Positions 41,770 through 54,180 of a stretch of DNA of 64,000 nucleotides are shown piece by piece. The notes below the pieces were generated by a model. That model made no database searches and was not told the DNA's origin. It was given only the letters and a program-made list of their open reading frames with translations. A program made the translations under genes and the position numbers. This DNA comes from Candidatus Bathyarchaeota archaeon (GTDB taxonomy: Archaea; Thermoproteota; Bathyarchaeia; Bathyarchaeales; Bathycorpusculaceae). Where the stretch lies: assembly GCA_963733095.1 (NCBI GenBank), contig CAVTBV010000008.1, forward strand, positions 1 through 64,000, given 5' to 3'. Within the stretch, counting starts at the first letter, position 1. The number at the start of each line of letters is the position of its first letter.

Positions 41770-43626
41770 GTGGCGTTAACCAGCAACTCTGATTTTTACG
41801 TCTCGATTCAAGACGCTGGCATCAATCGGCTTGTTCGGCATGTTATGTGGAAAAGGCCTTCTCTTTTTAACTATGGAACTTCGTTTGTTGCTTCTAACCC
41901 TCATCTTCTATGCCAAAATATCGATGTCGCGCCAGAGGTTCTGCAGGCTGGAAACCCCCTTGTTACAGTTATAGATTCTTTACCGATCATTGGAACATCG
42001 TTAGCACTAAACTACGCAATACAGCTCACAAAGGGAGAACTTGATTTTCATCCAGGAAATATCTTTACTCTTCCAAACGAATTAAATCCGCCATTAGGAA
42101 AACAGCGTCTTGGCGTTCATTTCCAAGTTTGCGCAGGCTTAGGCTGCCCCCCAGCCATTGGTCTTCCCACACCAGGCAAACCTTCTGTAAGAGTTCCCTC
42201 AATCGCCAATTTAACCAGGTTATCTGCAAACGACATATCCGTTTCTAAGACGGGCGGAATTTTTAATCCAAATGGCGGAGAAGTCGTTTTGCCATCACAA
42301 CAATTAGACTGTTTTTGCCTTGACTTATACGCTACGGGGGGCTCAAAAACAACGGGGTCTGTGGGAAATCAACAGATTCAGCCATTTGTGGACGGCATAG
42401 ACATCGTAGATATCGAGCCAGATCCAATAGAAAACATGATAGAATGCTACGCACTACTTGCTTTGAACCAAGGAATCCTCCCAAGTATCGGTCAGCTTAT
42501 TTCAAAATTCGCCTTTAACAATCCACTCCCGCCAGAATTGGGGACCCTTATTTTTTCTGCATCAACAACTGTTCCTAATAATCCCGCGATTGAAGACAAT
42601 CAACTCAAAGCCTTCATCAATTTAGACAACATAGTCCTTAACCTCAACATTCCCCCAACGATTTGCCAATCAAGCGGAGGGGGAAGCGGGGGTGGCGGCG
42701 GAGGCGGAGGAACCGTAACAAGGACCACTCGAAGCAGAACACGAACAGATACATTCGATTTAACCGCAGCTATTTCTGCCAAAGCATTTGGAAAAATCTT
42801 TGGGGCAATAGTTAAAGGCTTTCACTTTTCCTGCGCTGACCAAGGTAGTTATGGACCGTTTTCTGCGAATTACGATGTAGAGGCACATCTAGAAGGCGGA
42901 TCAATTCAATTGCGAAATAACGAAACCATCGAAGTCTCCGACTTAGAAGTGAAATGGGATACTTTGAGCCTAAATCTTTGCGTCGACATTCCTGAACAAT
43001 GTGTGGGCGGCGGCTGCCTTATTCCAAACCCATTTGATGGTTGCGTTCTTAGTGTGCCCAAAATATGCGTTTTCAGTGGCAACCCCGATTTCTGTTTACC
43101 GATAAATCTAAGCGGTCTGATTACTTCAGAGGTAACTTTTACTGCTGGTTTTAGGGTTTTCTACGGCATTGGCTCAGGTGTAACAAACAGATGGCAAATT
43201 GTAATAGTGCCCGAAATGCCTATTGATCTGCAAATAATCGACGTGGCTGATACGGTAGGTGACCTTTTCAAAAATCTTTTTGATTCAGCAATTGATGGAC
43301 TATTAGGCGGTCTCCCCGATTGGGCAAAAGACTTGTTGAAGGGCATTTTTGGTTCAATCGATGACATGATCCGATTCGTTCTTGACATTCCTGACGATAT
43401 AGCTGGCTGGCTTATGGATATCCTTACAAGCCTAGGGGTATTCGACGTTTTGCTATCGGGAGTCTATGATTTCTTAGCAAACAACTTACCCGCACTCGAA
43501 ATAGATGACCCCTTCAAAGCTTTAGACCAAGCCGGTCCGCTAATTCCGGTAATGGTTCCTATAGAGTTTATTGGAATTAAAATCAACTCAAACGAAATGA
43601 TTATTGAAGGAGATGTGGGGAACTAA
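41770..43626 (+). CDS. large Cys-containing two-domain hypothetical protein with poly-Gly linker
   Basis: 618-aa ORF with SD ggag; beta-rich halves joined by SSGGGSGGGGGGG. Confidence 0.8.
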   Translation: MALTSNSDFYVSIQDAGINRLVRHVMWKRPSLFNYGTSFVASNPHLLCQNIDVAPEVLQAGNPLVTVIDSLPIIGTSLALNYAIQLTKGELDFHPGNIFTLPNELNPPLGKQRLGVHFQVCAGLGCPPAIGLPTPGKPSVRVPSIANLTRLSANDISVSKTGGIFNPNGGEVVLPSQQLDCFCLDLYATGGSKTTGSVGNQQIQPFVDGIDIVDIEPDPIENMIECYALLALNQGILPSIGQLISKFAFNNPLPPELGTLIFSASTTVPNNPAIEDNQLKAFINLDNIVLNLNIPPTICQSSGGGSGGGGGGGGTVTRTTRSRTRTDTFDLTAAISAKAFGKIFGAIVKGFHFSCADQGSYGPFSANYDVEAHLEGGSIQLRNNETIEVSDLEVKWDTLSLNLCVDIPEQCVGGGCLIPNPFDGCVLSVPKICVFSGNPDFCLPINLSGLITSEVTFTAGFRVFYGIGSGVTNRWQIVIVPEMPIDLQIIDVADTVGDLFKNLFDSAIDGLLGGLPDWAKDLLKGIFGSIDDMIRFVLDIPDDIAGWLMDILTSLGVFDVLLSGVYDFLANNLPALEIDDPFKALDQAGPLIPVMVPIEFIGIKINSNEMIIEGDVGN

Positions 43627-43628
43627 AA

Positions 43629-44399
43629 ATGAAAGCCATACTTAATCCATTTGTTTTTTCTCAAGTAAACTTAGACAGCGCATCACTCACCATGCTGACT
43701 TCGGTCGTCCATAAGATCGCAGAGTCAGGAACATACGATGGCACAATTCAACGAGGATCAGACACGGTAGGCCGATTTAGATTGGCTGCTTCAGATTTAC
43801 CACCGGAAAAATGCGCAGACGAATCCAAAAATCAAGTCAATATCGACTTGAAAAGTTTGGATCTACCGGTAGCGGACCATATTGAAAGTCAATTGAAGAA
43901 TTGTTTCCAAGTCAAAACTGGAGGATACGTCGTATTTCATCTGTCAAATGGCGCTGGCGGCTACTCCGTCGAACTTCGAAAAACTGGAACCGAATGCGGG
44001 GGAAAAATAGTTTTTGACAGCCGAAAACTTAATGAAAACGACTATTTTGTTGCCACACCACTACGCCCAGGAATCTACAACATCTTAAACGTGGAAACAA
44101 AGGCAAAAGCAGAGTTAATTGTTGCTTATCCAGAAATCGGAAAAATACCTAAACAACCACAAGCAACAAAAGTTGAATGCAGCCAAAACGCAATAACGCC
44201 TGGAAAAACTAAAATCAACCCAACTGAGTCCTTATTGTTTAGTTTTATGGCATCTTCAAGAATAAAAATAGAGCTAGTCAAACCAGAAGATCGCCCTCGA
44301 GTGAACACACAAAAAAAGGAAACACAGCAATCTAAAAAACCATCGAAGAGTTTGGCTCCAAACCAGAAACCAATACGCCACCTGCGCATAAACGTCTGA
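43629..44399 (+). CDS. hypothetical beta-rich protein
   Basis: 256-aa ORF 2 bp after the 618-aa gene. Confidence 0.75.
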   Translation: MKAILNPFVFSQVNLDSASLTMLTSVVHKIAESGTYDGTIQRGSDTVGRFRLAASDLPPEKCADESKNQVNIDLKSLDLPVADHIESQLKNCFQVKTGGYVVFHLSNGAGGYSVELRKTGTECGGKIVFDSRKLNENDYFVATPLRPGIYNILNVETKAKAELIVAYPEIGKIPKQPQATKVECSQNAITPGKTKINPTESLLFSFMASSRIKIELVKPEDRPRVNTQKKETQQSKKPSKSLAPNQKPIRHLRINV

Positions 44400-44402
44400 A
44401 GC

Positions 44403-45494
44403 TTAACCACTTGGGGCTTTTCGGCCCACTTTACCTATTTCATACACAATCAAATGTGGATACTTCAGTAAAAATTTGTATAATTGAGCGTTCTCTTTTT
44501 TCAATTCAACACTTGGATCTGGCTCGTAGATATGTAATATTGCCATTTGGTTTTCGCTGAGCGCATTGGTCATTTCGCTAAGGGTAAACCAATGGTTAGG
44601 ATTATCCTTGTGCTTATGTTCTATCTTGTAACGTGGTAAACATCCGCGAAAATGGCCTCCATTTGAGAGGGCTATTCCTTTAGCAAGTTGACCAAAAAAG
44701 GGATGCGCCTCGATTATAAAGAATCTGCCTTGGTCTTTCAAAATTCTGTTAATTTTACTCAATGCTTGGCTGAATTCTTCATGGTTATGTTCCTTTCTGG
44801 AAAAGTCAAAACTCACAATGGTGTCTATCGCAACAACATAGTCAAACTCTTTAGGACGCAAATTTTCTGCAAATTCAAGAAAATCACGATGAAAAAACTC
44901 TACGTTACTAAGGCCTAACTTCTCCTTGAGTTCCTGTGCCTTAGAAATTAAAAATTTACTTTTATCTATTCCAATTACCTGTGCTCCACGTTGGGCCAAA
45001 ATGGCAGAATAAAATCCTGGTCCACATCCAAAGTCAAGGATTTTTTTTCCAGCTACATATTCTTTAGAAAAGAAATGGGTTACAAAATTGTGTACGTAAT
45101 GCTTGTAGTAGACTCTGTTTTTAGGTCGAATGTCAGAAACATCATCATAAAATTTCTTTTCAAACCAGTTTTCCATAATTGGTGGTTGCTCATTTTCTTC
45201 CAAAGCTTTACGAACTGCCTCGTTCATAGCTTTGTTGACTGCCTCAACGGCAATCTGATCAATGTTCTCGTCTATGCTTTTTTCGCCGATTACAGAAATT
45301 AACCATTCTTTGTACTCAGGTATCAATCTTTTTGCAGCTTCATACATTGTTGTTTGCAATTTCGCTAGAATTTCAAGATCCAAATTCGCAGCATTCAGAT
45401 TCTCCTTCGAGAATAGAGCAATAATTTTCCTCTTAGAAACAGTCTCTAGTGGCTTTTTGGAGGAAGTTTTGGGTGCTGATTTATTGTTTGACAA
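44403..45494 (-). CDS. class I SAM-dependent methyltransferase with N-terminal precursor-like domain
   Basis: ILDFGCGPG motif I, GIDKS, RILKDQG; residues ~1-101 align with the neighbouring precursor. Confidence 0.9.
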   Translation of the reverse strand: MSNNKSAPKTSSKKPLETVSKRKIIALFSKENLNAANLDLEILAKLQTTMYEAAKRLIPEYKEWLISVIGEKSIDENIDQIAVEAVNKAMNEAVRKALEENEQPPIMENWFEKKFYDDVSDIRPKNRVYYKHYVHNFVTHFFSKEYVAGKKILDFGCGPGFYSAILAQRGAQVIGIDKSKFLISKAQELKEKLGLSNVEFFHRDFLEFAENLRPKEFDYVVAIDTIVSFDFSRKEHNHEEFSQALSKINRILKDQGRFFIIEAHPFFGQLAKGIALSNGGHFRGCLPRYKIEHKHKDNPNHWFTLSEMTNALSENQMAILHIYEPDPSVELKKENAQLYKFLLKYPHLIVYEIGKVGRKAPSG

Positions 45495-45607
45495 AACAAT
45501 CGCTACTCCATTTTCATGAATTGGGAACTATTTATGTTTGTGAGGCATTGCAGATTTTAATTGAAGGAAATCCATATTGCGGATCGTACTGAAAAGTTCA
45601 GTAATGT

Positions 45608-47188
45608 TTAGTAAAACGGAACAATTATTTTTAAGGGATTATTTCTGGCTGTTTTTAACTTTCTTAGTCGTGCCCAGACTGAAGTTAAGATTTCATAACG
45701 ATTACTCTCTGGTCTGGGTGAATACACATAACTGTGGTTTAAGCCCATATTTCGCCTGATTGCTTCAATTCCATATTTTTGTGGATTTTGAGATATTTCT
45801 GAATCATGATAGACCCCAAAACGTGAAACATGTACCTGATCAATAAACTCATAATTCCGCTCTAAGAAATCAACAGACTGTTTGAAATCGCTTACAGTTT
45901 CTCCTGGAAAATCTACGATCATAAATGTTAGAACCCGAATTCCGCTTCTTGCAGTATTCCGAATCACCTTCTTAGCAGTGTCCAAATCATACCCTTTTTT
46001 CATTTTCTGCAATATTCTTTGAGACCCTGATTCTATGCCATACCACAAACCTATGCAACCTGCATTGCACATCTTTTCCAGCAACTTATTAGTCATTTCA
46101 GGGCGAACCCGAGCATTACCCATCCATTTTATTCCCATATCTTCTTCGATTAATAAATCACAGAATGTTTCTAGCGATTTTATATTACAATTTATAAAAC
46201 TGTCGTTGAAGCGAATGACAGACGTTCCATACTTTCCTTGCATACTTTTAATCTCGGATACAATGTCTTCGGGGGTTCGCATACGGCAAGTGTTACCCCA
46301 TAACCGTTTTTCAACACAAAAAACACAATTCCCAACACACCCTCTAGAGCCAACAACTGGCATTATAGGCATACCAAACTTATTCTGAGGATACTCACTC
46401 AATGGCAAATCATCATAAGAGGGAAAAGGCAAAGAATCAAGAGATTCCACTAATGGACGAGCCTCATTGGTAATGATTATATCTTCCGTGTTCCTGTAAG
46501 AGATTCCTTTGATTTCTTCAATTGACTCTAAACTACCGTCATACGAATTCGCAAGCTCAGAAATTGTGACCTCGCCTTCACCATGAACTACTGCATTAAT
46601 TTCGGGATAAAAAGAGAGAACTTCTTTCCAAGAGACGAATGCAGGTCCACCCAACACCGTCAAGATTCTGGGCAGACGTTTCTTCAATTTACGTGCAAGA
46701 AGAATACTCCACAACAATCCAATATGACTAATCACATGAAATCCCACAATACTTTGTTCTTTGAAAGCATGGGCAACTTCCAAAAACCAACTGTTACAAA
46801 TTTTCCAAACATCAGAGACAACTTCTAACCTTAATTCTTCATTAATCACGTGGCCGTACCCTAAATTTGAATAAGGATAACTTAATTGATCAGAGGCCTC
46901 TTTTAACATAATTTCTTCAAAAGTATCCTTGCTCTCGAACATAACAGAGCAAAGATGCGATTCAGGAATTTTTTCCTCTTTCACACTTACTCCACGATTG
47001 CTATGGCGTAAAATTTCTCTGGGCTTAATGCTTAATCCTTGGTGAAAAAGAGCTAAATTAAAAGATTTAATGTTCAAATCGAAGGTACTTACATTTTGAT
47101 TATTTGCCTTTAGGATACCTGTCAGGTAAGGGATTGCAGGATAAGGCACTAAGGAAGATACAGGGGGGATGCAAAAAAACACGGGCAT
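45608..47188 (-). CDS. B12-binding radical SAM enzyme (class B methylase-like)
   Basis: N-terminal cobalamin-binding domain (PP...P.AIPYL..IL, LGGP, GEGE), SRGCVGNCVFC, GIESGSQRIL..MKK. Confidence 0.9.
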   Translation of the reverse strand: MPVFFCIPPVSSLVPYPAIPYLTGILKANNQNVSTFDLNIKSFNLALFHQGLSIKPREILRHSNRGVSVKEEKIPESHLCSVMFESKDTFEEIMLKEASDQLSYPYSNLGYGHVINEELRLEVVSDVWKICNSWFLEVAHAFKEQSIVGFHVISHIGLLWSILLARKLKKRLPRILTVLGGPAFVSWKEVLSFYPEINAVVHGEGEVTISELANSYDGSLESIEEIKGISYRNTEDIIITNEARPLVESLDSLPFPSYDDLPLSEYPQNKFGMPIMPVVGSRGCVGNCVFCVEKRLWGNTCRMRTPEDIVSEIKSMQGKYGTSVIRFNDSFINCNIKSLETFCDLLIEEDMGIKWMGNARVRPEMTNKLLEKMCNAGCIGLWYGIESGSQRILQKMKKGYDLDTAKKVIRNTARSGIRVLTFMIVDFPGETVSDFKQSVDFLERNYEFIDQVHVSRFGVYHDSEISQNPQKYGIEAIRRNMGLNHSYVYSPRPESNRYEILTSVWARLRKLKTARNNPLKIIVPFY

Positions 47189-47351
47189 TTTGTAAATCCT
47201 TTAAATCATGTTTTGACGAAGCTTTCTGGTAACCCACTTTGGATAAGCGTGATGCTACATAATGAAACTAAGAATCATGATGCATTAATGTTATGACAAC
47301 AACTCTTATGGTCAATTACGCCCTTTTATTTGAGGGTTGAATTAAAGAACC

Positions 47352-47858
47352 TCAAACTCTACCTTGTTTCAAATTTTCTTTCAAAGCTTCACGAATTGCA
47401 ACATTCATAGCTTTGTTAACTGCCTGAGCAACCATGTCATCAATGTTCCTATTTGGTTGAGGACAATCGTTTCCACAAGAACTACATAAGGGCGTTGGAC
47501 AATCGTTTCCACAAGAACTACATAAGGGCGTTGGACAATCGTTTCCACAAGAACTACATAAGGGCGTTGGACAATCTTCAGCCACAACTCTTTCACCAAA
47601 AGAAGAATTCACCCACTGTTTGTATTCGGGCACCGTTTTTTCCACGACTTCATGAATTGTTGATTGTAGTTTCGCATATATTTCTGGATCTATTTTTTCA
47701 ATAGGGGGCATTTTTGCTAAAAGCGCATTTAGTCGTCTACTTTGCGCCCCAGTGAGTTTACTTTTTGAAACAACGGTGGTTAATTTCTTAGAAGCTATTT
47801 TAGCGGGTTTTTTATAATTAGCTTTTGTCCTTACTTTATTCTTTGGCAAAAAAATCAC
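47352..47858 (-). CDS. putative multi-core RiPP precursor, (CPTPLCSSCGND)x3
   Basis: 168-aa ORF between two radical SAM genes; all 10 Cys fall in the central repeat block. Confidence 0.8.
   Translation of the reverse strand: MIFLPKNKVRTKANYKKPAKIASKKLTTVVSKSKLTGAQSRRLNALLAKMPPIEKIDPEIYAKLQSTIHEVVEKTVPEYKQWVNSSFGERVVAEDCPTPLCSSCGNDCPTPLCSSCGNDCPTPLCSSCGNDCPQPNRNIDDMVAQAVNKAMNVAIREALKENLKQGRV
47461..47576. repeat. perfect 36-bp tandem repeat, 3.2 copies, in frame within the precursor
   Basis: ggacaatcgtttccacaagaactacataagggcgtt x3 + ggacaatc. Confidence 0.97.
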
Positions 47859-47998
47859 TAACTATTTATGATTTACCAATTATTTATGTTTATTGCACGG
47901 AACTGATTTAAGACTTATTTTTAAATAAGCCTGAGTCGATTCTACACTTTTATCAAAGATCAGCGTTGTTTGTCCATAGAGCTTTCGGTAATGGAAAT

Positions 47999-49456
47999 TT
48001 AGGTTGGTTTCTTTGCTCTCTTTTTCACCCGTCTTCGCAACTTTTTCGATTTTAGGTTTGTAGATTGCATCAGGAAATTATAAGTTAGCAAAAGTTTGAG
48101 GATTTCATTTTGAAAAGTGCAAAAATAGTTCTCTTTTATTCCAATTTTACCGGTCTTAATGTAGACATCATAGGCACAAGCTCCGCCGCAGATCCCAAGG
48201 GCAGGACAAAGCATACAATCTTTATTCTTCAGGGTGCCAAGTTCTAGCCACTCGTAAAACAATGGTTCTTCTTGAACATTCAAATCGTCTTTTACTGGAA
48301 TTTGATGTTTTCCGGAAGGATAAAACGCTTGGCAAGGCCCAACAGTTCCAGCAGGTGAAAAGAATATTTGCTGACCAAATGCAGGACAATCATACACATG
48401 AAATGCTTCCTTGAAAAAATAGCTTGCTCTTCGCACATCTATGCGATCTTCAAACATCTGAAGTTCTTTAGCTTTTAAGTATGCTCTAAAAAGATGCTGA
48501 GCTAGTTGTTTTGGGTCGGGAACTTCATATTCGGTCGGTTCCTTTAGTCTGGTTAACAAATTGAAACTTAGGCTTCTAACTCCCAATTTATGGACAAATT
48601 CAACTATTTCCTCCGCGTATTCGTAGTTCTGTTTCGTAATTGTACATGATATCCCAACATTTACTCCAAGTTCTTTCAAGAGAGCCAACGCTTTAAGTGC
48701 TGAATAAAATGTTTCTTTTCCGCCAGTAAAAACACGGTTTTTGTCTATGCTGGCCCATCCGTCTAGTGATAAACCAACACCAACATTGTGTTGCTTGAGT
48801 TTTCTAGCCAAGTCATCTGTTAATAAACTCCCGTTAGTAACGCAAGAAAACACGAATTTGTTTTTGGATGCTTGCTCCAGTTTTTCAATAATGTAGAAAA
48901 CGATTTCGCTGTTGCTAAGTGGTTCTCCTCCATAAAATGTGACTCTGTATTCTTGAACTTGTCTTGCTGCGTTAATTAGAACTTTTATGACTTTGTCCGC
49001 CAAATCCTTTGACATTGAAATGCTCGGTCCTTCAAGAGAGTTTTCAATGAAGCAGTAACCGCATCTGAAGTTGCAGTAGTCAGTCACTAAAATGTACGAC
49101 AGATTTGGCACGGGTTTTTTTCTGAGTACGCTATCTGCAATGTTATTAAACACTTTTTCTTGATCAAAGCCGCGAGGCACTATGAATTTCAACTTAATTA
49201 GCTTCTTGACGTAGCCACTTTGGTGCCCCTTGCTTAGATCTGTTAAAACCTTAACATACTCATCATTGGACAAGTATACTTTTTTCAGAGTTAAAGAATT
49301 AAAAAGACACTTCGTCGTTTCATCTATGTTAAACAGATGGATGAACGGCGAAAGAATTAACTGGGATGGTTCTTCACAGCTCGATTGTTTACCGGGATTA
49401 CTTTTGTTCAAAAGAGCATTAACCTTCGCGACTTGTTTTTTGCTAAATTTATGCAA
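47999..49456 (-). CDS. radical SAM/SPASM peptide maturase
   Basis: CNFRCGYC, FYGGEP, TNG, SLDG; SPASM C-x17-C...CMLC-x5-C-x3-C...C; RRE-like N-domain (LFNSLT...LIKLKFIV). Confidence 0.9.
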   Translation of the reverse strand: MHKFSKKQVAKVNALLNKSNPGKQSSCEEPSQLILSPFIHLFNIDETTKCLFNSLTLKKVYLSNDEYVKVLTDLSKGHQSGYVKKLIKLKFIVPRGFDQEKVFNNIADSVLRKKPVPNLSYILVTDYCNFRCGYCFIENSLEGPSISMSKDLADKVIKVLINAARQVQEYRVTFYGGEPLSNSEIVFYIIEKLEQASKNKFVFSCVTNGSLLTDDLARKLKQHNVGVGLSLDGWASIDKNRVFTGGKETFYSALKALALLKELGVNVGISCTITKQNYEYAEEIVEFVHKLGVRSLSFNLLTRLKEPTEYEVPDPKQLAQHLFRAYLKAKELQMFEDRIDVRRASYFFKEAFHVYDCPAFGQQIFFSPAGTVGPCQAFYPSGKHQIPVKDDLNVQEEPLFYEWLELGTLKNKDCMLCPALGICGGACAYDVYIKTGKIGIKENYFCTFQNEILKLLLTYNFLMQSTNLKSKKLRRRVKKRAKKPT

Positions 49457-50654: not shown

Positions 50655-50978
50655 CTATCGCGGAGTATTGACTGCTGTTTTTCTTTTTGATTTTTCTATT
50701 ATCTCACAGATGCGGCAGGCGGCGTCATCGAGTGTCTTTTTGAGCTGCTTCATGTCCTCTTCGACTGCGTCGCGGTTTTCCAAAAGTGGGTAGACACTGA
50801 GATGGATCAAGTCGAAAGTTGCCTTAATGTCAATTTTTCCTGTTCTTTTTTGATCCATGACTGATTTCATTATTTTTTCTCTTTTGGCAATTTCCTCAAT
50901 CTTTAACCTTGGTTTATCGCTACTTAGACTTCTGCTCATTACATTACCACCTCTATCTCTGGAATTTTCATCCCACAC
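50655..50978 (-). CDS. small helical hypothetical protein (likely start MSRS at 50939)
   Basis: Start overlaps the stop of the 398-aa gene. Confidence 0.6.
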   Translation of the reverse strand: MWDENSRDRGGNVMSRSLSSDKPRLKIEEIAKREKIMKSVMDQKRTGKIDIKATFDLIHLSVYPLLENRDAVEEDMKQLKKTLDDAACRICEIIEKSKRKTAVNTPR

Positions 50979-52135
50979 AGGTTTAATCCCTTAATTTTAA
51001 TACCTTTTAATACCAAGCTTAGGTCAAGCTTGTCGGTGATTGCTGAGTCAGTTGTAACTGTGCCGGATAAGTTTGAAAACTCCAAGCCGCCCTTGACCCT
51101 CATCACCATTTTGCTGACGTTGAGAGTTAATACGCCGGTTATATGGGCTCTATCTGCGTCACCAATGAGGGTAACACCTGGTCCATACATCTGTTTTGAG
51201 GTGGATATGGTTAGAGCAGTCTTAGATTCTGCTTCAAAGGGCTGGGTAGTGACAGATGGAATTGTTACGTTTAAGGCTTTTATGTCTTTCATGGAAGCTT
51301 GAGGACTCGAAATTCCGTTTGAGTCCATTTCATCAATTGTTGTTTGGTCTGTTGCGATGTCGTTGGGTCCCGTTGGATTAGGGATTGGAAGGCACAGTCC
51401 AATGTTAATTCCAAGGGGAGTATCGATGGGGATGCTTGTACATTTCATCTGTATGTTGTCGGCTGAAACTTGGTCTATTGTGGTTTCCTTTATCGGGTCA
51501 GCAGTCATAGAGAATGGACCGATAGAGGTTAGAGTTGAAAACATGGAAAATTGACCAGCGCCGAACACGACGTCTCCAAGCGTATGTTTCTCCACATAAG
51601 AGTTAAAGTTGACTCCGCCCGATACGCCATAACAAAAGTCAGACCAACAGAGCGGCCATGGCAAGTCAATGTTTCCCGAAAACGTTGTGCTTATGGATAA
51701 TGTGATTTCTAGCTCTACGTTTTTGGCTTTGCATGATTCGTACTTGAATGTTCCGCTAAAATCTCTCAGCCGAAGGTTTGGAATGGATACTTCACCGATT
51801 TCTATCTCCGCAATCGAGAGCGGTCCCCCGATGCTGGAGGCGATTTTGGATTGGGGTATAACTGCTCGAGCTATCACCTTTTGTTCTCTTGGGCGACATC
51901 GCATTTGGGGCGGAGGGCAATCACAACCCTTTATCGGGATTTTGGGTAAATCGAAACATACTTTTTGTGTTTCTACCTCTATTTTAGGCAAGTTTAAGCA
52001 GACTTTTTGCGTTTCCACCTTCGGCAGTGGAATGCATATTTTCCCTTCTTGCGATGCAGTAGTTGCGTTAGTTGTTTCTACGGAAGTTACTTCTTTTACA
52101 TCTAAAACTTTTTTTGTTCTCGAGCTCTTGCTCAA
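50939..52135 (-). CDS. beta-rich Cys-containing hypothetical protein
   Basis: 398 aa; N-terminal triple repeat KICIPLPKV/KVCLNLPKI/KVCFDLPKI. Confidence 0.75.
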   Translation of the reverse strand: MSKSSRTKKVLDVKEVTSVETTNATTASQEGKICIPLPKVETQKVCLNLPKIEVETQKVCFDLPKIPIKGCDCPPPQMRCRPREQKVIARAVIPQSKIASSIGGPLSIAEIEIGEVSIPNLRLRDFSGTFKYESCKAKNVELEITLSISTTFSGNIDLPWPLCWSDFCYGVSGGVNFNSYVEKHTLGDVVFGAGQFSMFSTLTSIGPFSMTADPIKETTIDQVSADNIQMKCTSIPIDTPLGINIGLCLPIPNPTGPNDIATDQTTIDEMDSNGISSPQASMKDIKALNVTIPSVTTQPFEAESKTALTISTSKQMYGPGVTLIGDADRAHITGVLTLNVSKMVMRVKGGLEFSNLSGTVTTDSAITDKLDLSLVLKGIKIKGLNLCGMKIPEIEVVM

Positions 52136-52238
52136 TTGCTTGGCCCCATTTCTATTTGGGAATATTGTTATTTATCGTTTGTGTTGAGTCTGATTAGTCG
52201 ACTCAATTTAAGAACGTACACACCACCCTATGACTTTT

Positions 52239-52637
52239 CTATTGCAATCTATATGTCAAGAAGTAGAAACGTGGTGACAATCTGGAGAGCAACAAGATTT
52301 GTTCAAAAATCCTATAGCACTTTAACAGTGTTGCAGGTTCTCCAAATGCTTCAAGCTTGTTTGTTTGGAGTGCTTTGTTGAGAGTTATTCTACCTTCAAG
52401 AAGGTCAAAGAGGCATTTTCTTGAAAAGTTTATTCTCACATCAATGGTCTTAGGCATTTTTTCCCCTCCGATAATAACATCGTCGGCTGTAACGCGAATC
52501 AGGGTTTTCTCTTCATCGAGAGTCTGAAGCCAGTTTAAGCCCTCAGTTTCAGCAATCATTCTCCTAAGATGTTGAGGGTAATCTTGTTTCATTAACGCGA
52601 TCAGCTCTTTCATGAATTGTTCAAGTGTCAATTGCAT
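52239..52637 (-). CDS. SCP2 (sterol carrier)-like lipid-binding protein
   Basis: DVRINFSRKCLFDLLEGRITLNKALQTNKLEAFG matches the SCP2 C-terminal pattern. Confidence 0.6.
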   Translation of the reverse strand: MQLTLEQFMKELIALMKQDYPQHLRRMIAETEGLNWLQTLDEEKTLIRVTADDVIIGGEKMPKTIDVRINFSRKCLFDLLEGRITLNKALQTNKLEAFGEPATLLKCYRIFEQILLLSRLSPRFYFLTYRLQ

Positions 52638-52642
52638 AGGTT

Positions 52643-53749
52643 CTAAACCCTCTTTCGCGGACGAACCGATTCAAACCAGCAGGGAAGAACACACTCATAG
52701 GTATTGCCTCCAACTTTCGCGCGCAAGTTGGCTTCACAGAACATTTCATTGAACACAACCTCTGACGAATTGATAATACTATTGTTGACTATGCTACATA
52801 CCGCCTTAGGGGTAAAAACAATTTCAAGTTTATCGACGTCTTTAAAGGCGGTAAACGTTCTGTTTTTTGGAATAGACGGGCGGTAACTCGGATACAGTAA
52901 CTGCGTGATTCCAGGCATAACGCTTAGGTTGCCATCGTAGTCTCCTGAGGAAGCTATCTTCATTTTAGTGTTGTCGAAGAATTGTCTTTTTCCATCTTTT
53001 GTTTCAAGGAAGACTCCGCCGTATGATAAATCGTTGGAAGAGCCATAGCGGTAAATCAGAAAATCCACTCGTCCAGGCTCATCGGCAGCTAGAGGGTCAC
53101 AAAAGATAACGCCAGTATCCCAACCCCAAGTCATCCCTATGTCGAAGCATCCGCCTTCATGGTCCTGATAGCCCTGATTAGTCTTAATTGCGTAGTTCTT
53201 CTTGCATATTGTTAGGTTGCCTTCAACAAATAGTCTCGGCAGCTCAACCCAACTTTCCCATTGGTGATTCATTTCTTGGGCTGCCAAAAGCATCTTTGCG
53301 TTAGGATTCTGCTCTTTTAGGACTTCCATGAAGATATCTTTGTCTGTCACAGGTGGCGATACAACTTTAAAATTTAGGTCAAAAGAAGTCTGTTCCATCT
53401 GTCCCACAACATCAAAAGAATTGTTCGCCAACAAAGCTACTGAGAAATTATCGCCGGTAAAGTTGGGGCTGTATGATGTAACCTCGAGTTGACCCATCTG
53501 TATTAACTTTAATTCGGAAAATATTTTTTGAGATGAATCCACAATGTATGAAAGAACAGAGCCCCAGCCGCGTTTTGAATCATATGGATTTCCATGAACA
53601 CCAAAGTTTAGCAGACCGAATATCCCTGTTTTTCGGTCGAAAAAAACGAAGTCATGCCATTCTTGATAGAGCCGAGCCTTCGCATCGAAAAGGGAGGGCA
53701 GAGTGAAAGCATCGACGCTAGCCGTGTCTTCTACACGGTATAGAGTCAT
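52643..53749 (-). CDS. AttH/CrtC/tocopherol-cyclase-like beta-barrel protein
   Basis: YQEWHDF near the N-terminus and GYQDHEGG...WGWD resemble the EWWYF and G-Y-x-DH-x-WG..W-x-W motifs. Confidence 0.55.
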   Translation of the reverse strand: MTLYRVEDTASVDAFTLPSLFDAKARLYQEWHDFVFFDRKTGIFGLLNFGVHGNPYDSKRGWGSVLSYIVDSSQKIFSELKLIQMGQLEVTSYSPNFTGDNFSVALLANNSFDVVGQMEQTSFDLNFKVVSPPVTDKDIFMEVLKEQNPNAKMLLAAQEMNHQWESWVELPRLFVEGNLTICKKNYAIKTNQGYQDHEGGCFDIGMTWGWDTGVIFCDPLAADEPGRVDFLIYRYGSSNDLSYGGVFLETKDGKRQFFDNTKMKIASSGDYDGNLSVMPGITQLLYPSYRPSIPKNRTFTAFKDVDKLEIVFTPKAVCSIVNNSIINSSEVVFNEMFCEANLRAKVGGNTYECVLPCWFESVRPRKRV

Positions 53750-54180
53750 TGAACAGACTGCTCAGGGGTAGTTTCTTCAGTGGCTGGTGTTGCCTTTTCT
53801 ATTATGTCAACTGCGCGATTGGATACTTTTTGTACAAGGGTTAAGAGTTCTGTGTTAAATTGGATGTAGAGGCGCATCATGTCGCTGACAGAGTTGCTGA
53901 CGAGTTCAGTCATTTCTTCATTGTTTAGTTTGCTCATACGTGAAGACACTTTGCTTAGTCTTTGAGCTGTCTGAACAGTGTTATTTACTGAAGCTTGGGT
54001 TAACTTGGTTAATTGGTCTTTGTATTCTGGATTGTTAAGCGTGGATGCGATTTGGTCTATGGCTTTCTGCACAGTCTTCGGGTTAGGCATAACTGTTTTA
54101 GGGTTTGCCTCAGCTGTGCTTTTGGCCCTTGTGCTTGTTTTTTTGGTTGTTTGATTGCTCACCGTTATCTCCTCTCTCAT
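53746..54180 (-). CDS. alpha-helical hypothetical protein
   Basis: 144 aa, amphipathic helices, overlaps the next gene by 4 bp. Confidence 0.65.
   Translation of the reverse strand: MREEITVSNQTTKKTSTRAKSTAEANPKTVMPNPKTVQKAIDQIASTLNNPEYKDQLTKLTQASVNNTVQTAQRLSKVSSRMSKLNNEEMTELVSNSVSDMMRLYIQFNTELLTLVQKVSNRAVDIIEKATPATEETTPEQSVQ

What the first reader, a model, noticed from the sequence alone, without database searches (positions are those of the whole stretch)
45192..47858. The methyltransferase N-terminus is a core-less copy of the precursor scaffold
Seen by manual ungapped alignment. Precursor DPEIYAKLQSTIHEVVEKTVPEYKQWVNSSFGE vs MTase DLEILAKLQTTMYEAAKRLIPEYKEWLISVIGE: 17/33 identical. Precursor NIDDMVAQAVNKAMNVAIREALKEN vs MTase NIDQIAVEAVNKAMNEAVRKALEEN: 16/25 identical. 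KIASKKLTTVVSKSK also matches KTSSKKPLETVSKRK. Between the two blocks the MTase has 5 residues and the precursor has 48, containing all the Cys cores. Inference: leader and follower fold together as one helical domain that displays the cores as a loop. The enzyme may dock by hetero-oligomerising through its own copy of that domain, so recognition would be by self-similarity instead of a classical RRE. This is conceptually reminiscent of split borosins but apparently a different architecture. Alternatively the precursor arose by duplication of the enzyme's N-terminus.
Basis: partly seen in the sequence, partly recalled or inferred. Interest (0 to 1): 0.95.

Follow-up and report, generated by a model that had tools for sequence, protein, structure and literature searches.

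The report
Methyltransferase carries core-less precursor copy
In an uncultured archaeon, one enzyme of a peptide-modifying gene cluster begins with a copy of its own substrate protein that lacks the cysteine-rich part, and this copy may be how the enzyme finds its substrate.

Summary
The first ~105 residues of the class I methyltransferase (44403-45494, minus strand) are homologous to the leader plus follower of the neighbouring 168-aa precursor (BLASTP E 3e-16). All reader counts were reproduced.

The fusion is a conserved architecture. 22 of 28 related loci, nearly all from Bathyarchaeota MAGs, carry it, as do 48 of 53 close methyltransferase clusters. The N-domains form a single clade under purifying selection (dN/dS 0.34). 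The domain occurs almost nowhere else: 19 hits among 1.84 billion representatives.

The direction is precursor to enzyme. Evidence: core relics in the enzyme loop, a homologous 5' flank with a shared TTG start, and 0 of 45 more distant methyltransferases carrying the domain.

The function is not shown. Both models predict long helices but with low confidence. A complex prediction gave only weak support (0.41 against 0.00 for controls). No cognate-specific co-variation was found.

Docking by pairing with the precursor scaffold is my best guess (~0.4). Mimicry towards the radical SAM enzymes is a serious rival.

I found no described precedent. The nearest are borosin fusions and the archaeal CrpA/CrpB pair.

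The parts
47999..49456 (-). Radical SAM/SPASM-type peptide maturase, 485 aa, with a ~110-aa N-terminal extension ahead of the CxxxCxxC motif
   Evidence: Pfam Radical_SAM E 1.8e-22 and Fer4_12. Best NCBIfam matches are TIGR04136 (186 bits, cut-off 400) and PapB family (138.8, cut-off 340), all below cut-off. Best solved relative is CteB 5wgg, E 8.7e-22, residues 103-433. Homologues at 74-80% identity stand first in the related loci.
47352..47858 (-). Precursor ORF, 168 aa from the GTG. The start shared with relatives is more likely the TTG at 47849, giving M-P-K-N-K.
   Evidence: ORF. 128 relatives at E<=0.01 among 301 candidates. 5'-end comparison.
47577..47858 (-). Leader, residues 1-94: a Lys-rich tail, a precursor-specific helix (37-49), and a long helix (58-83) shared with the enzyme
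   Evidence: Alignments. AlphaFold2 helices 37-49, 58-83 and 86-94, with block pLDDT 67-81.
47454..47576 (-). Core, residues 95-135: three exact 12-residue repeats (DCPTPLCSSCGN) plus a partial fourth, holding all 10 Cys
   Evidence: Tandem Repeats Finder: 47461-47576, period 36, 3.2 copies, 100% matches. Cys count. Relatives have 1 to 5 repeats. Modelled as disordered, pLDDT about 36.
47355..47453 (-). Follower, residues 136-168: one long amphipathic helix
   Evidence: Helix 138-164. Shared conserved residues lie on its hydrophobic face.
45608..47188 (-). B12-binding-type (class B) radical SAM enzyme, 526 aa, a probable C-methyltransferase
   Evidence: Pfam Radical_SAM E 6.3e-18; B12-binding 20.8 bits, below the cut-off of 32.1. 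NCBIfam ApyD 168 bits and TIGR03975 137 bits, both below cut-off. Present between precursor and methyltransferase in 20 of the 22 loci that have the methyltransferase.
45180..45494 (-). Methyltransferase N-domain, residues 1-105: the core-less copy of the precursor scaffold. Tail, helix 1 (39-71), 5-residue loop (72-76), helix 2 (77-101).
   Evidence: AlphaFold2 helices 40-69 and 78-101 with block pLDDT 53-63, followed by a low-confidence linker at 97-126.
44403..45179 (-). Class I SAM-dependent methyltransferase catalytic domain, residues 106-363
   Evidence: Pfam Methyltransf_31 E 1.5e-22, plus Methyltransf_25/11/12/23. Best solved relative is PH0226 1ve3, E 1.2e-12. 98 relatives at E<=1e-10.
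47859..47890 (-). 5' flank of the precursor gene, with a TATA-like CATAAATA 32-39 nt upstream of the TTG
   Evidence: Sequence. Conserved across precursor genes and similar to the methyltransferase 5' flank. Judged by eye from anchored sequences, not scored statistically.
45495..45536 (-). 5' flank of the methyltransferase gene, with the same kind of CATAAATA motif 35-42 nt upstream of its TTG start

Best explanation
SHOWN
- The first ~105 residues of the methyltransferase are a core-less paralogue of the precursor's whole scaffold: Lys-rich tail, leader helix and follower helix.
- The fusion is a conserved, single-origin architecture of a RiPP-like cluster found almost only in Bathyarchaeota MAGs. 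The gene order is SPASM radical SAM, precursor, B12 radical SAM, an optional second precursor, then the methyltransferase.
- The domain is kept under purifying selection.

INFERRED, origin
- A precursor gene standing directly upstream of a SPASM-associated class I methyltransferase lost its tandem-repeat core and its stop codon. It fused in frame and kept its own promoter-proximal region and TTG start.

INFERRED, mechanism (my commitment)
- The two long helices form a hairpin that is not stable alone and pairs with a second hairpin.
- The enzyme's copy pairs with the scaffold of a precursor molecule.
- This tethers the catalytic domain, through a flexible ~25-residue linker, next to the Cys/Asp-rich loop that the two radical SAM enzymes cross-link and C-methylate.
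- Recognition by the methyltransferase would then rest on self-similar helix-helix association.
- The radical SAM enzymes would read the precursor-specific helix (residues 37-49), which the enzyme's copy has lost.
For: Homology
- E 3e-16; all reader counts reproduced; E values down to about 1e-32 in other loci.

Conservation of the fusion
- 22 of 28 related genomic loci have the methyltransferase, each with the precursor-like segment directly upstream of the catalytic domain.
- 48 of 53 protein clusters at >=65% identity in the catalytic domain match the domain HMM at E<=1e-3. The other 5 are short gene calls that start inside or just after the follower helix.

Single origin
- 18 enzyme domains against 30 precursors are separated by one starred branch, 96/84.

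Selection (Nei-Gojobori, 15 genes, 105 pairs)
- dN/dS is 0.34 for the N-domain: helix 1 0.21, helix 2 0.50, tail 0.34.
- The catalytic domain is 0.13.

Shared surface
- 35 of 105 shared columns are >=80% conserved with the same residue in both groups.
- On helix 1 the 16 shared conserved positions surround the helix. 9 polar ones point about 175 degrees away from the hydrophobic face. That is more constraint than intramolecular packing alone needs.

Structure
- Two long helices flank a short loop, followed by a low-confidence linker. The precursor has the same helices with a disordered core.

Complex prediction, enzyme residues 1-105 with the precursor
- Verdict: weak support. Score 0.41 (runs 0.47, 0.20, 0.41); best of 3 controls 0.00.
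- The mark was reached by 58 of 80 solved complexes and 2 of 110 mismatched pairs. At 0.60 or under it was reached by only 7 of those 80 and by both mismatches that passed.
- Runs agree in at least 24% of contacts. Partner pLDDT is at least 50.

What the enzyme copy lacks
- The precursor-specific helix motif is replaced by an unrelated Pro/Ser-containing stretch.

Restricted distribution
-.
Against: - No binding is shown. The complex score is in the band that the tool calls more often wrong than right unless the guess was likely beforehand.
- Model confidence is low: enzyme N-domain pLDDT 53-63, precursor pTM 0.28. A hairpin is inferred from the short loop and was not reported by any tool.
- The enzyme domain is not more similar to the precursor of its own locus than to those of other loci. 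Its rank is 3 to 23 among 28-29 foreign precursors in 17 loci. So there is no cognate-specific co-variation.
- The conserved helix-1 surface is also kept in precursors whose loci lack the methyltransferase: L014, which has two SPASM enzymes only, and the orphan loci. That surface therefore serves something other than methyltransferase docking. This fits a common-receptor model at least as well.
- The window's own N-domain is the most diverged copy: branch length 1.06, loop cut to 5 residues.
- In 3 loci the reading frame breaks inside the loop.
Confidence: 0.4

Rival explanations
1. Leader mimicry towards a common receptor. The precursor scaffold and the enzyme's copy both bind the same site on the SPASM and/or B12 radical SAM enzyme. 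The methyltransferase is thereby recruited into a maturase complex, or takes the precursor's place after cross-linking, and does not bind the precursor scaffold itself.
For: - The stretch most conserved in the precursor family, the start of helix 1, is the stretch best conserved in the enzyme copy. In RiPP systems the most conserved leader stretch is usually the maturase recognition sequence (general knowledge, recalled).
- This surface is kept in precursors from loci without the methyltransferase.
- There is no cognate-specific co-variation between enzyme copy and precursor.
- In the archaeal Crp system the authors propose domain-domain contacts between the substrate's N-terminal domain and the SPASM enzyme. 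A paralogue with the same N-terminus (CrpB) raised the extent of processing (PMC13692751, sections 8 and 13 and discussion passages).
Against: - It would compete with the substrate for the same site unless the maturase is oligomeric.
- The precursor-specific helix 37-49 is the part the enzyme copy has lost, and it is an equally good candidate for the maturase recognition sequence.
- No RRE-type Pfam match was found in the SPASM N-terminus.
Confidence: 0.25
2. Cis-acting pseudo-substrate or built-in leader. The N-domain binds the methyltransferase's own catalytic domain at the site that normally holds the precursor scaffold. It either blocks the enzyme until a real substrate displaces it, or holds it in an active state as engineered leader-enzyme fusions do.
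For: - The loop of the enzyme copy keeps a conserved remnant of the core: the Asp of the first core unit is >=90% conserved in both groups, and loops of the N-D-x-S-N-G-S or D-D-C-S-N-x-C-P-T type occur.
- A flexible linker would allow back-folding.
- Engineered leader-enzyme fusions that activate lanthipeptide synthetases and cyanobactin heterocyclases are known (recalled, not looked up).
Against: - The loop is not conserved in the window's own enzyme, where it is 5 residues with no remnant.
- The loop Cys varies among C, S, G, Y and A.
- No tool output shows contact between the N-domain and the catalytic domain.
Confidence: 0.13
3. The domain was co-opted only as a dimerisation or stability module of the methyltransferase and makes no contact with the precursor or the radical SAM enzymes.
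For: - Two-helix hairpins commonly dimerise (general knowledge).
- Purifying selection is present but is weaker than in the catalytic domain.
- There is no cognate co-variation.
Against: - The whole scaffold is retained, including the Lys-rich tail (dN/dS 0.34) and the polar face of helix 1. That is more than a dimerisation helix pair needs.
- The 45 more distant methyltransferases of the family do without it.
Confidence: 0.12
4. Evolutionary relic. A decayed precursor copy happens to be read in frame with the methyltransferase and has no function.
For: - A second precursor gene often stands exactly at this position, in 8 loci.
- The window's copy is strongly diverged.
- 3 loci have a frame break in the loop.
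Against: - dN/dS is 0.34 overall and 0.21 in helix 1 over 105 gene pairs.
- The frame is intact in 15 full-length genomic genes and 48 protein clusters.
- The domain has a single old origin.
- Even in the broken loci, helix 1 (0.11-0.31) and the follower part (0.22) stay constrained, though from few codons and 3 loci.
Confidence: 0.05
5. One reading: the precursor arose by duplication of the enzyme's N-terminus, followed by insertion of cores.
For: The tree is unrooted, so sister-clade status cannot be excluded by topology alone.
Against: - Enzyme loops hold decayed core units, for example D-D-C-S-N-N-C-P-T-P in the ~390-aa forms.
- The enzyme gene carries a precursor-type 5' flank and TTG start.
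- 0 of 45 more distant methyltransferases of the same family have the domain, and those seen in their genomic context sit beside other SPASM enzymes with unrelated precursors.
- Precursors occur without the enzyme.
- Enzyme domains group with 5 precursors of the window's subtype against the other 25, support 100/98.
Confidence: 0.05

Closest known systems
Crp system of Methanococcus voltae: CrpA/CrpB/CrpC, a SPASM radical SAM enzyme that installs ranthionine cross-links in a Cys-rich repeat protein (PMC13692751; I read the abstract, sections 8 and 13, and passages)
   Same: - Archaeal.
- A SPASM radical SAM enzyme sits next to a protein with tandem Cys-containing repeats.
- The substrate has a structured N-terminal domain that contributes to enzyme engagement beyond a short RRE motif.
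- A second gene product (CrpB) shares the substrate's N-terminal 47 residues, and its presence raised processing.
- No protease or exporter lies in the immediate cluster.
   Different: - CrpC belongs to TIGR04463. The window's enzyme scores 98.7 bits against a cut-off of 525.
- CrpB is a stand-alone paralogue with its own repeats, not an enzyme fusion.
- Crp has no follower helix, no B12 enzyme and no methyltransferase.
- The precursor families are unrelated by sequence (none appeared).
Borosins: OphMA-type fused and SonM/SonA-type split (PMC11285071 passages; PMC8429565 listing and abstract only)
   Same: - A methyltransferase and precursor-derived sequence sit in one polypeptide.
- Fused and split forms exist in evolution.
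- A helical precursor domain mediates the enzyme-substrate assembly.
   Different: - In borosins the enzyme is fused to a real core and methylates it (backbone N-methylation). The enzyme is a different fold class (recalled).
- Here a class I Rossmann methyltransferase carries a copy without the core at its N-terminus, and the substrate is a separate gene.
Proteusin (NHLP) and Nif11-type long structured leaders (PMC10858898 passages)
   Same: A long leader that folds into a helical domain and is homologous to a domain of another protein family.
   Different: - The homologue there is an unrelated housekeeping-type protein, not a domain of the pathway's own tailoring enzyme.
- The structured part was dispensable for binding the brominase SrpI.
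- The window's precursor has no NHLP or Nif11 match.
Engineered leader-enzyme fusions of lanthipeptide synthetases and cyanobactin heterocyclases
   Same: A leader sequence is covalently attached to the modifying enzyme.
   Different: Those fusions are artificial, use short leaders and serve to activate the enzyme towards leaderless cores. Nothing shows that this natural case works that way.
Ranthipeptide and sactipeptide maturases with repeated Cys motifs: PapB family, CteB
   Same: - Best profile and structure matches of the SPASM enzyme: PapB family E 2.4e-40; CteB E 8.7e-22.
- The substrate has repeated Cys-containing units.
   Different: - All family scores are below cut-off.
- The precursor is far longer and has a conserved follower.
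- The chemistry is untested.

Membership tests
Radical SAM/SPASM RiPP maturase systems (generic) | A radical SAM domain with CxxxCxxC plus a C-terminal Cys-rich auxiliary-cluster region, encoded next to a Cys-containing substrate | tested here: met
   - Radical_SAM E 1.8e-22.
- The alignment to CteB runs through the C-terminal CxxC...C region to residue 433.
- The precursor lies directly downstream.
- The Pfam SPASM model itself was not among the hits at E<=0.01.
TIGR04463 (CrpC-type) maturases | Score at or above the curated cut-off of 525 bits | tested here: not met
   98.7 bits, E 3.1e-28
TIGR04136 FibroRumin maturase and PapB-family ranthipeptide maturase | Score at or above the curated cut-offs (400 and 340 bits) | tested here: not met
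   186.2 and 138.8 bits
Thioether-cross-linked peptides (sacti- and ranthipeptides) | A Cys sulfur to carbon thioether in the product | not testable with these tools
   Needs mass spectrometry of the modified precursor.
Borosins | A methyltransferase fused to, or paired with, a core that it N-methylates on the backbone, using the borosin-type methyltransferase fold | tested here: not met
   - The enzyme is class I: Methyltransf_31/25/11.
- Solved relatives are small-molecule or protein class I methyltransferases.
- The fused copy has no core.
NHLP / Nif11 leader families | A profile match of the leader | tested here: not met
   No family for the precursor in NCBIfam. Only sub-threshold chance-level Pfam hits.
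RRE (PqqD-like) dependent recognition | A PqqD-like winged-helix domain in a pathway protein | tested here: inconclusive
   - No Pfam hit in SPASM residues 1-120 even at E<=10.
- The extension does align with the N-terminal parts of the TIGR04136 and NF038107 profiles.
- The methyltransferase N-domain has no such hit.
Class B (B12-dependent) radical SAM methyltransferases | An N-terminal cobalamin-binding domain plus a radical SAM domain, and family score cut-offs | tested here: inconclusive
   - B12-binding 20.8 bits against a cut-off of 32.1; Radical_SAM E 6.3e-18.
- TIGR03975 137.3 against 281.85; ApyD 168.4 against 750.

The most novel reading that the evidence does not exclude
A substrate-recognition principle not described for RiPP-like pathways. 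A tailoring enzyme finds its substrate because it carries a core-less copy of the substrate's own folded scaffold, which co-assembles with the substrate helix to helix. The 'precursor' is really a small protein whose cross-linked, methylated Cys/Asp loops stay displayed on that scaffold and are never released as a peptide. No protease or exporter is conserved in the cluster.
Probability: 0.3. Interest if true: 0.85.

Novelty: new variant of a known kind. Interest (0 to 1): 0.66.

Why it matters
How tailoring enzyme finds its substrate is a central question in RiPP biosynthesis. The known answers are the RRE, leader helices bound by the enzyme, or covalent fusion to the core as in borosins.

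This case is a natural, conserved and selected arrangement in which the enzyme carries the substrate's scaffold without the substrate. If that copy is the docking device, three things follow:
- It is a portable recognition module for engineering: graft the scaffold onto any enzyme and put any loop into the precursor.
- It shows how new recognition can arise from one gene duplication plus loss of a tandem repeat.
- It defines an undescribed family of rSAM-modified Cys-repeat proteins in Bathyarchaeota, a phylum with almost no characterised natural products.

The hypothesis can be tested directly with four genes in E. coli.

Tried and rejected
Searches and tests that led nowhere or were rejected:

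1. The word-indexed search with enzyme residues 1-105 found only the window's own protein, 1 of 123 candidates. This was a sensitivity miss, not uniqueness. tblastn on fetched loci and the catalytic-domain search found the fusion many times.
2. I checked whether the SPASM enzyme's N-terminus also carries a copy of a leader motif, because a short resemblance caught my eye. The domain HMM gave only E 5-7 on 2 SPASM ORFs, so I rejected it.
3. I checked for co-variation or gene conversion between the enzyme domain and its cognate precursor. None was found.
4. I checked whether the ~45-residue N-extension of the more distant methyltransferases mimics their own precursors' leaders. Local alignment scores were no better than shuffles: the fraction of shuffles reaching the score was 0.95, 0.85 and 0.40. 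Rejected.
5. Neighbours of precursors that lack nearby enzymes are unrelated genes: peptidase-like, beta-propeller, hydrogenase subunit, amylase.
6. The window's flanking ORFs at 50939-54180 have no homologues in any of the 28 loci. They were not counted as part of the system.
7. The ESM Atlas search with the precursor gave no usable hit.
8. Sequencing runs: no RNA holder was listed.
9. Pfam at E<=10 on the SPASM N-terminus, the enzyme N-domain and the precursor gave nothing above chance.
10. Literature. I found no paper describing this precursor family or an enzyme with a core-less precursor copy. The searches were (0 papers). These cover only the held open-access library.
11. I did not run complex predictions of the N-domain with the SPASM or B12 enzyme, or of precursor homo-oligomers.

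Full report
**1. The observation.**
On the minus strand the window holds four consecutive genes:
- a radical SAM/SPASM-type enzyme (47999-49456);
- a 168-aa ORF (47352-47858);
- a B12-type radical SAM enzyme (45608-47188);
- a class I SAM methyltransferase (44403-45494).

BLASTP of the 168-aa protein against the methyltransferase gives E 3e-16. The alignment covers enzyme residues 2-101, and one long gap in the enzyme lies opposite the Cys-rich middle of the small protein.

The Cys region is a perfect 36-bp tandem array of 3.2 copies.

**2. The precursor family.**
The small protein has 128 relatives at E<=0.01 among 301 candidates in the word-indexed protein collection. All listed members share three features:
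- a Lys-rich N-terminus;
- a conserved leader and a conserved C-terminal helix (the follower);
- between them, 1 to 5 copies of a 12-residue unit of the type D-C-P-x-x-x-C-S-S-C-G-N.

A scan of one genome per prokaryotic species returned 28 loci. 27 come from records titled Candidatus Bathyarchaeota, and one (L014) from a bin titled Sulfotelmatobacter. Some genomes hold three loci. The window's own genome holds only this one.

**3. The fusion is a conserved architecture.**
tblastn of the window's proteins against the 28 loci shows a recurrent gene order: SPASM enzyme, precursor, B12 enzyme, methyltransferase.
- 8 loci have a second precursor between the B12 enzyme and the methyltransferase.
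- 22 of the 28 loci have the methyltransferase. In each, the catalytic domain is preceded by a segment that matches both the window's enzyme N-domain and the window's precursor, with E values down to about 1e-32.
- 20 of those 22 have the B12 enzyme in between.
- 6 loci (L008, L012, L014, L016, L017, L029) have a precursor without the methyltransferase in the fetched range. Their neighbours are unrelated genes, or in L014 two SPASM enzymes.

An earlier word-limited search for the N-domain had found only the window's own protein. That was a miss of the method.

The catalytic domain has 98 relatives at E<=1e-10.
- Of the 53 clusters with >=65% identity, 48 match a domain HMM at E<=1e-3. The other 5 are short gene calls that begin inside or just after the follower helix.
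- Of the 45 clusters with <=63% identity, none has the domain.

**4. What is shared and what is not.**
An alignment of 18 enzyme N-domains and 30 precursors shows that the correspondence starts at the first residues, M/L-F-L-(S/P)-K-N-K, and runs to the end of the follower helix.
- In place of the cores the enzyme has a loop of about 9 residues, 5 in the window.
- 35 of 105 shared columns are >=80% conserved with the same residue in both groups.
- The precursors have a strongly conserved helix just before the shared helix: residues 37-49 in the window, pLDDT 67-78. The enzyme copies replace it with an unrelated stretch containing Pro and Ser.
- On the shared helix 1 the conserved positions go all round the helix. 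This includes nine polar ones on the side opposite the hydrophobic face.
- On helix 2 the conserved positions lie on the hydrophobic face.

**5. Evolution.**
- In a maximum-likelihood tree of the 105 shared columns, the 18 enzyme domains and 30 precursors are separated by one starred branch (96/84). The enzyme domains group with the five precursors of the window's subtype against the other 25 (100/98).
- Pairwise Nei-Gojobori estimates over 15 full-length genes (105 pairs) give dN/dS 0.34 for the N-domain. Helix 1 is 0.21, helix 2 0.50, and tail and loop 0.34. The catalytic domain is 0.13. The domain is therefore constrained, though less than the catalytic part.
- The enzyme domain is not more like its own locus's precursor than like others. 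I see neither gene conversion nor cognate-specific co-variation.

Four things indicate that the enzyme acquired a precursor, and not the reverse:
- In the ~390-aa forms closest to the window's catalytic domain, the loop holds a recognisable collapsed core unit, for example D-D-C-S-N-N-C-P-T-P.
- The methyltransferase genes have the same kind of 5' flank as the precursor genes: a CATAAATA-like motif 32-42 nt upstream, a conserved GATT-T-rich stretch, and the same TTG start followed by (S/P)-K-N-K codons (judged by eye).
- The more distant methyltransferases lack the domain. On metagenome contigs they sit directly downstream of other SPASM enzymes (about 30% identical). Their precursors are unrelated and much more Cys-rich, yet also have a leader and a helical follower.
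- Precursors exist without the enzyme.

Copy-number change of a perfect tandem repeat gives an easy route to losing the core.

**6. Structure and binding predictions.**
- AlphaFold2 on a 16-sequence alignment of the enzyme: mean pLDDT 62.7; helices 40-69 and 78-101 with block pLDDT 53-63; a low-confidence linker at 97-126; and a confident Rossmann core.
- AlphaFold2 on a 35-sequence alignment of the precursor: mean pLDDT 55.6; pTM 0.28; helices 37-49, 58-83, 86-94 and 138-164; and a disordered core at 95-137.

The helices are credible. That they pack as one hairpin is my inference from the short loop in the enzyme, not a tool result.

The one complex job paired enzyme residues 1-105 with the precursor, using my own alignments. 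It returned 'weak support':
- Score 0.41 (runs 0.47, 0.20, 0.41); best of 3 controls 0.00.
- The mark was reached by 58 of 80 solved complexes and 2 of 110 mismatched pairs. At 0.60 or under it was reached by only 7 of the 80 and by both mismatches that passed.
- The runs agree in at least 24% of contacts, and the partner's pLDDT is at least 50.

**7. Distribution of the domain.**
A profile of 16 enzyme domains and 8 precursors was scored against 1.84 billion representative proteins. It found 19 proteins at E<=1e-3, 15 of them at <=1e-10.
- They are precursors, some with different cores such as C-P-T-P-I-C-D-C-N-x-C units or a C-rich C-x-C run, fragments, and one 367-aa methyltransferase representative.
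- The one other long protein is 649 aa, at E 3.8e-4 in five short stretches. It is a leucine-rich-repeat-like sequence that I regard as spurious.

I saw no fusion to any other enzyme.

**8. How it most likely works.**
The shown facts are homology, conservation, a single origin, selection and restricted distribution. They establish that the enzyme's N-domain is a functional derivative of the precursor scaffold. What it does is inferred.

My preferred reading, with confidence about 0.4, is this. The scaffold is a helical hairpin that pairs with another hairpin. The enzyme's copy pairs with a precursor's scaffold and so holds the catalytic domain, on a flexible linker, beside the core loop. The precursor-only helix 37-49 serves the radical SAM enzymes.

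The main rival, at about 0.25, is that scaffold and copy bind the same site on a radical SAM enzyme. It is favoured by two things. The shared helix-1 surface is retained in loci without the methyltransferase. And the Crp precedent has a paralogue sharing the substrate's N-terminus that raised processing, where the authors suggest domain-domain contacts with the SPASM enzyme (PMC13692751).

The remaining readings are less likely: cis pseudo-substrate or built-in leader (0.13), mere dimerisation (0.12), and relic (0.05).

The target atom of the methyltransferase is unknown. An Asp-Cys dyad is the element common to the cores of this family and of the sister systems.

**9. Comparison with what is known.**
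- The SPASM enzyme is related to CteB, PapB, FibroRumin and CrpC-type maturases but is below every curated cut-off.
- The system is not a borosin. The enzyme is class I and carries no core.
- The leader is not NHLP or Nif11.
- A 2024 review of RiPP methyltransferases mentions only borosins as enzyme-precursor fusions, in the passages I searched (PMC11285071).
- Structured helical leaders are known in proteusins (PMC10858898).
- Seven literature searches found no description of this family or of a tailoring enzyme carrying a core-less copy of its precursor. They cover only the held library, and supplements were closed.

**10. Verdict.**
The finding is real and the homology claim is solid. The fusion is a family trait and not a peculiarity of this window. 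In fact the window holds its most eroded example. The mechanistic claim is attractive and testable but rests on weak computational support. I rate it a new variant of a known kind (RiPP-like rSAM pathway, enzyme-precursor fusion), with interest 0.66.

**Limits.**
- The genomes are uncultured MAGs, several of them long-read assemblies with evident frameshifts.
- No expression data were found.
- The dN/dS figures are pairwise means from non-independent pairs.
- The 5'-flank similarity was not scored statistically.

Noticed in passing
L009:12297-13485, L010:12544-13723, L031:10600-11790: In 3 of the 22 loci with the methyltransferase, the reading frame breaks inside the loop between the leader-like and follower-like halves. 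An ATG ORF starting M-I-V-P overlaps the D-D-C codons and carries the follower helix plus the catalytic domain. Both halves still look constrained (dN/dS 0.11-0.31 and 0.22, from few codons). Ten database clusters of the same ~390-aa subgroup are in frame. This could be a real split gene, a frameshift site or an assembly error.
   Followed up: partly
L033:5736-8894, L037:4365-8258, L041:5819-8756 (metagenome contigs): These are sister systems in high-GC contigs. A SPASM enzyme (~30% identical) is followed directly by a methyltransferase 57-61% identical in the catalytic domain. Upstream lie precursors of 179-258 aa with 13-44 Cys in repeats, a conserved leader and a helical follower. This points to a wider, apparently undescribed superfamily of leader-core-follower Cys-repeat proteins. 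Here the methyltransferase has a ~45-aa N-extension that is not similar to the leader.
   Followed up: partly
window 47859-47890 and 45495-45536; first ~20 coding bases of both genes: The precursor and methyltransferase genes share a conserved 5' region: a CATAAATA-like box, a GATT-T-rich stretch and the TTG start with A-rich codons. It is nearly invariant at the nucleotide level across species. Synonymous divergence is also lower in the N-domain (0.38) than in the catalytic domain (0.60). This may be a shared promoter or translation-start element, possibly leaderless mRNAs.
   Followed up: partly
window 41770-43626 (+) and 43629-44399 (+): Two ORFs of 618 and 256 aa have no Pfam or NCBIfam family; the first has a Gly-rich linker. 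They lie convergent to the cluster. Homologues sit next to the cluster in L030 (~68-70% identity, but upstream and divergent), and the 618-aa one also in L019 (~27-31% identity). The association may be loose. Function unknown.
   Followed up: no
L012:9932-10432, L014:4558-5085, L016:9935-10450; P0002, P0009, P0014 and others: A precursor subtype has an extra Lys-rich C-terminal helix after the follower. It occurs in loci without the methyltransferase. L014 has two different SPASM enzymes instead.
   Followed up: no
L014 (record titled Candidatus Sulfotelmatobacter): This is the only locus from a bacterial-titled bin. Its SPASM enzyme is 77% identical to the window's, and the contig is only 10.4 kb. 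Mis-binning seems more likely than transfer.
   Followed up: no
P0131, P0124, P0133: These are scaffold relatives with quite different cores: a dense C-x-C run, or C-P-T-P-I-C-D-C-N-x-C units. The scaffold is therefore used to display more than one kind of Cys-rich loop.
   Followed up: no
window 47858 vs 47849: The mechanical ORF starts at a GTG. Comparison with relatives suggests the real start is the TTG three codons downstream, which would make the precursor 165 aa.
   Followed up: partly
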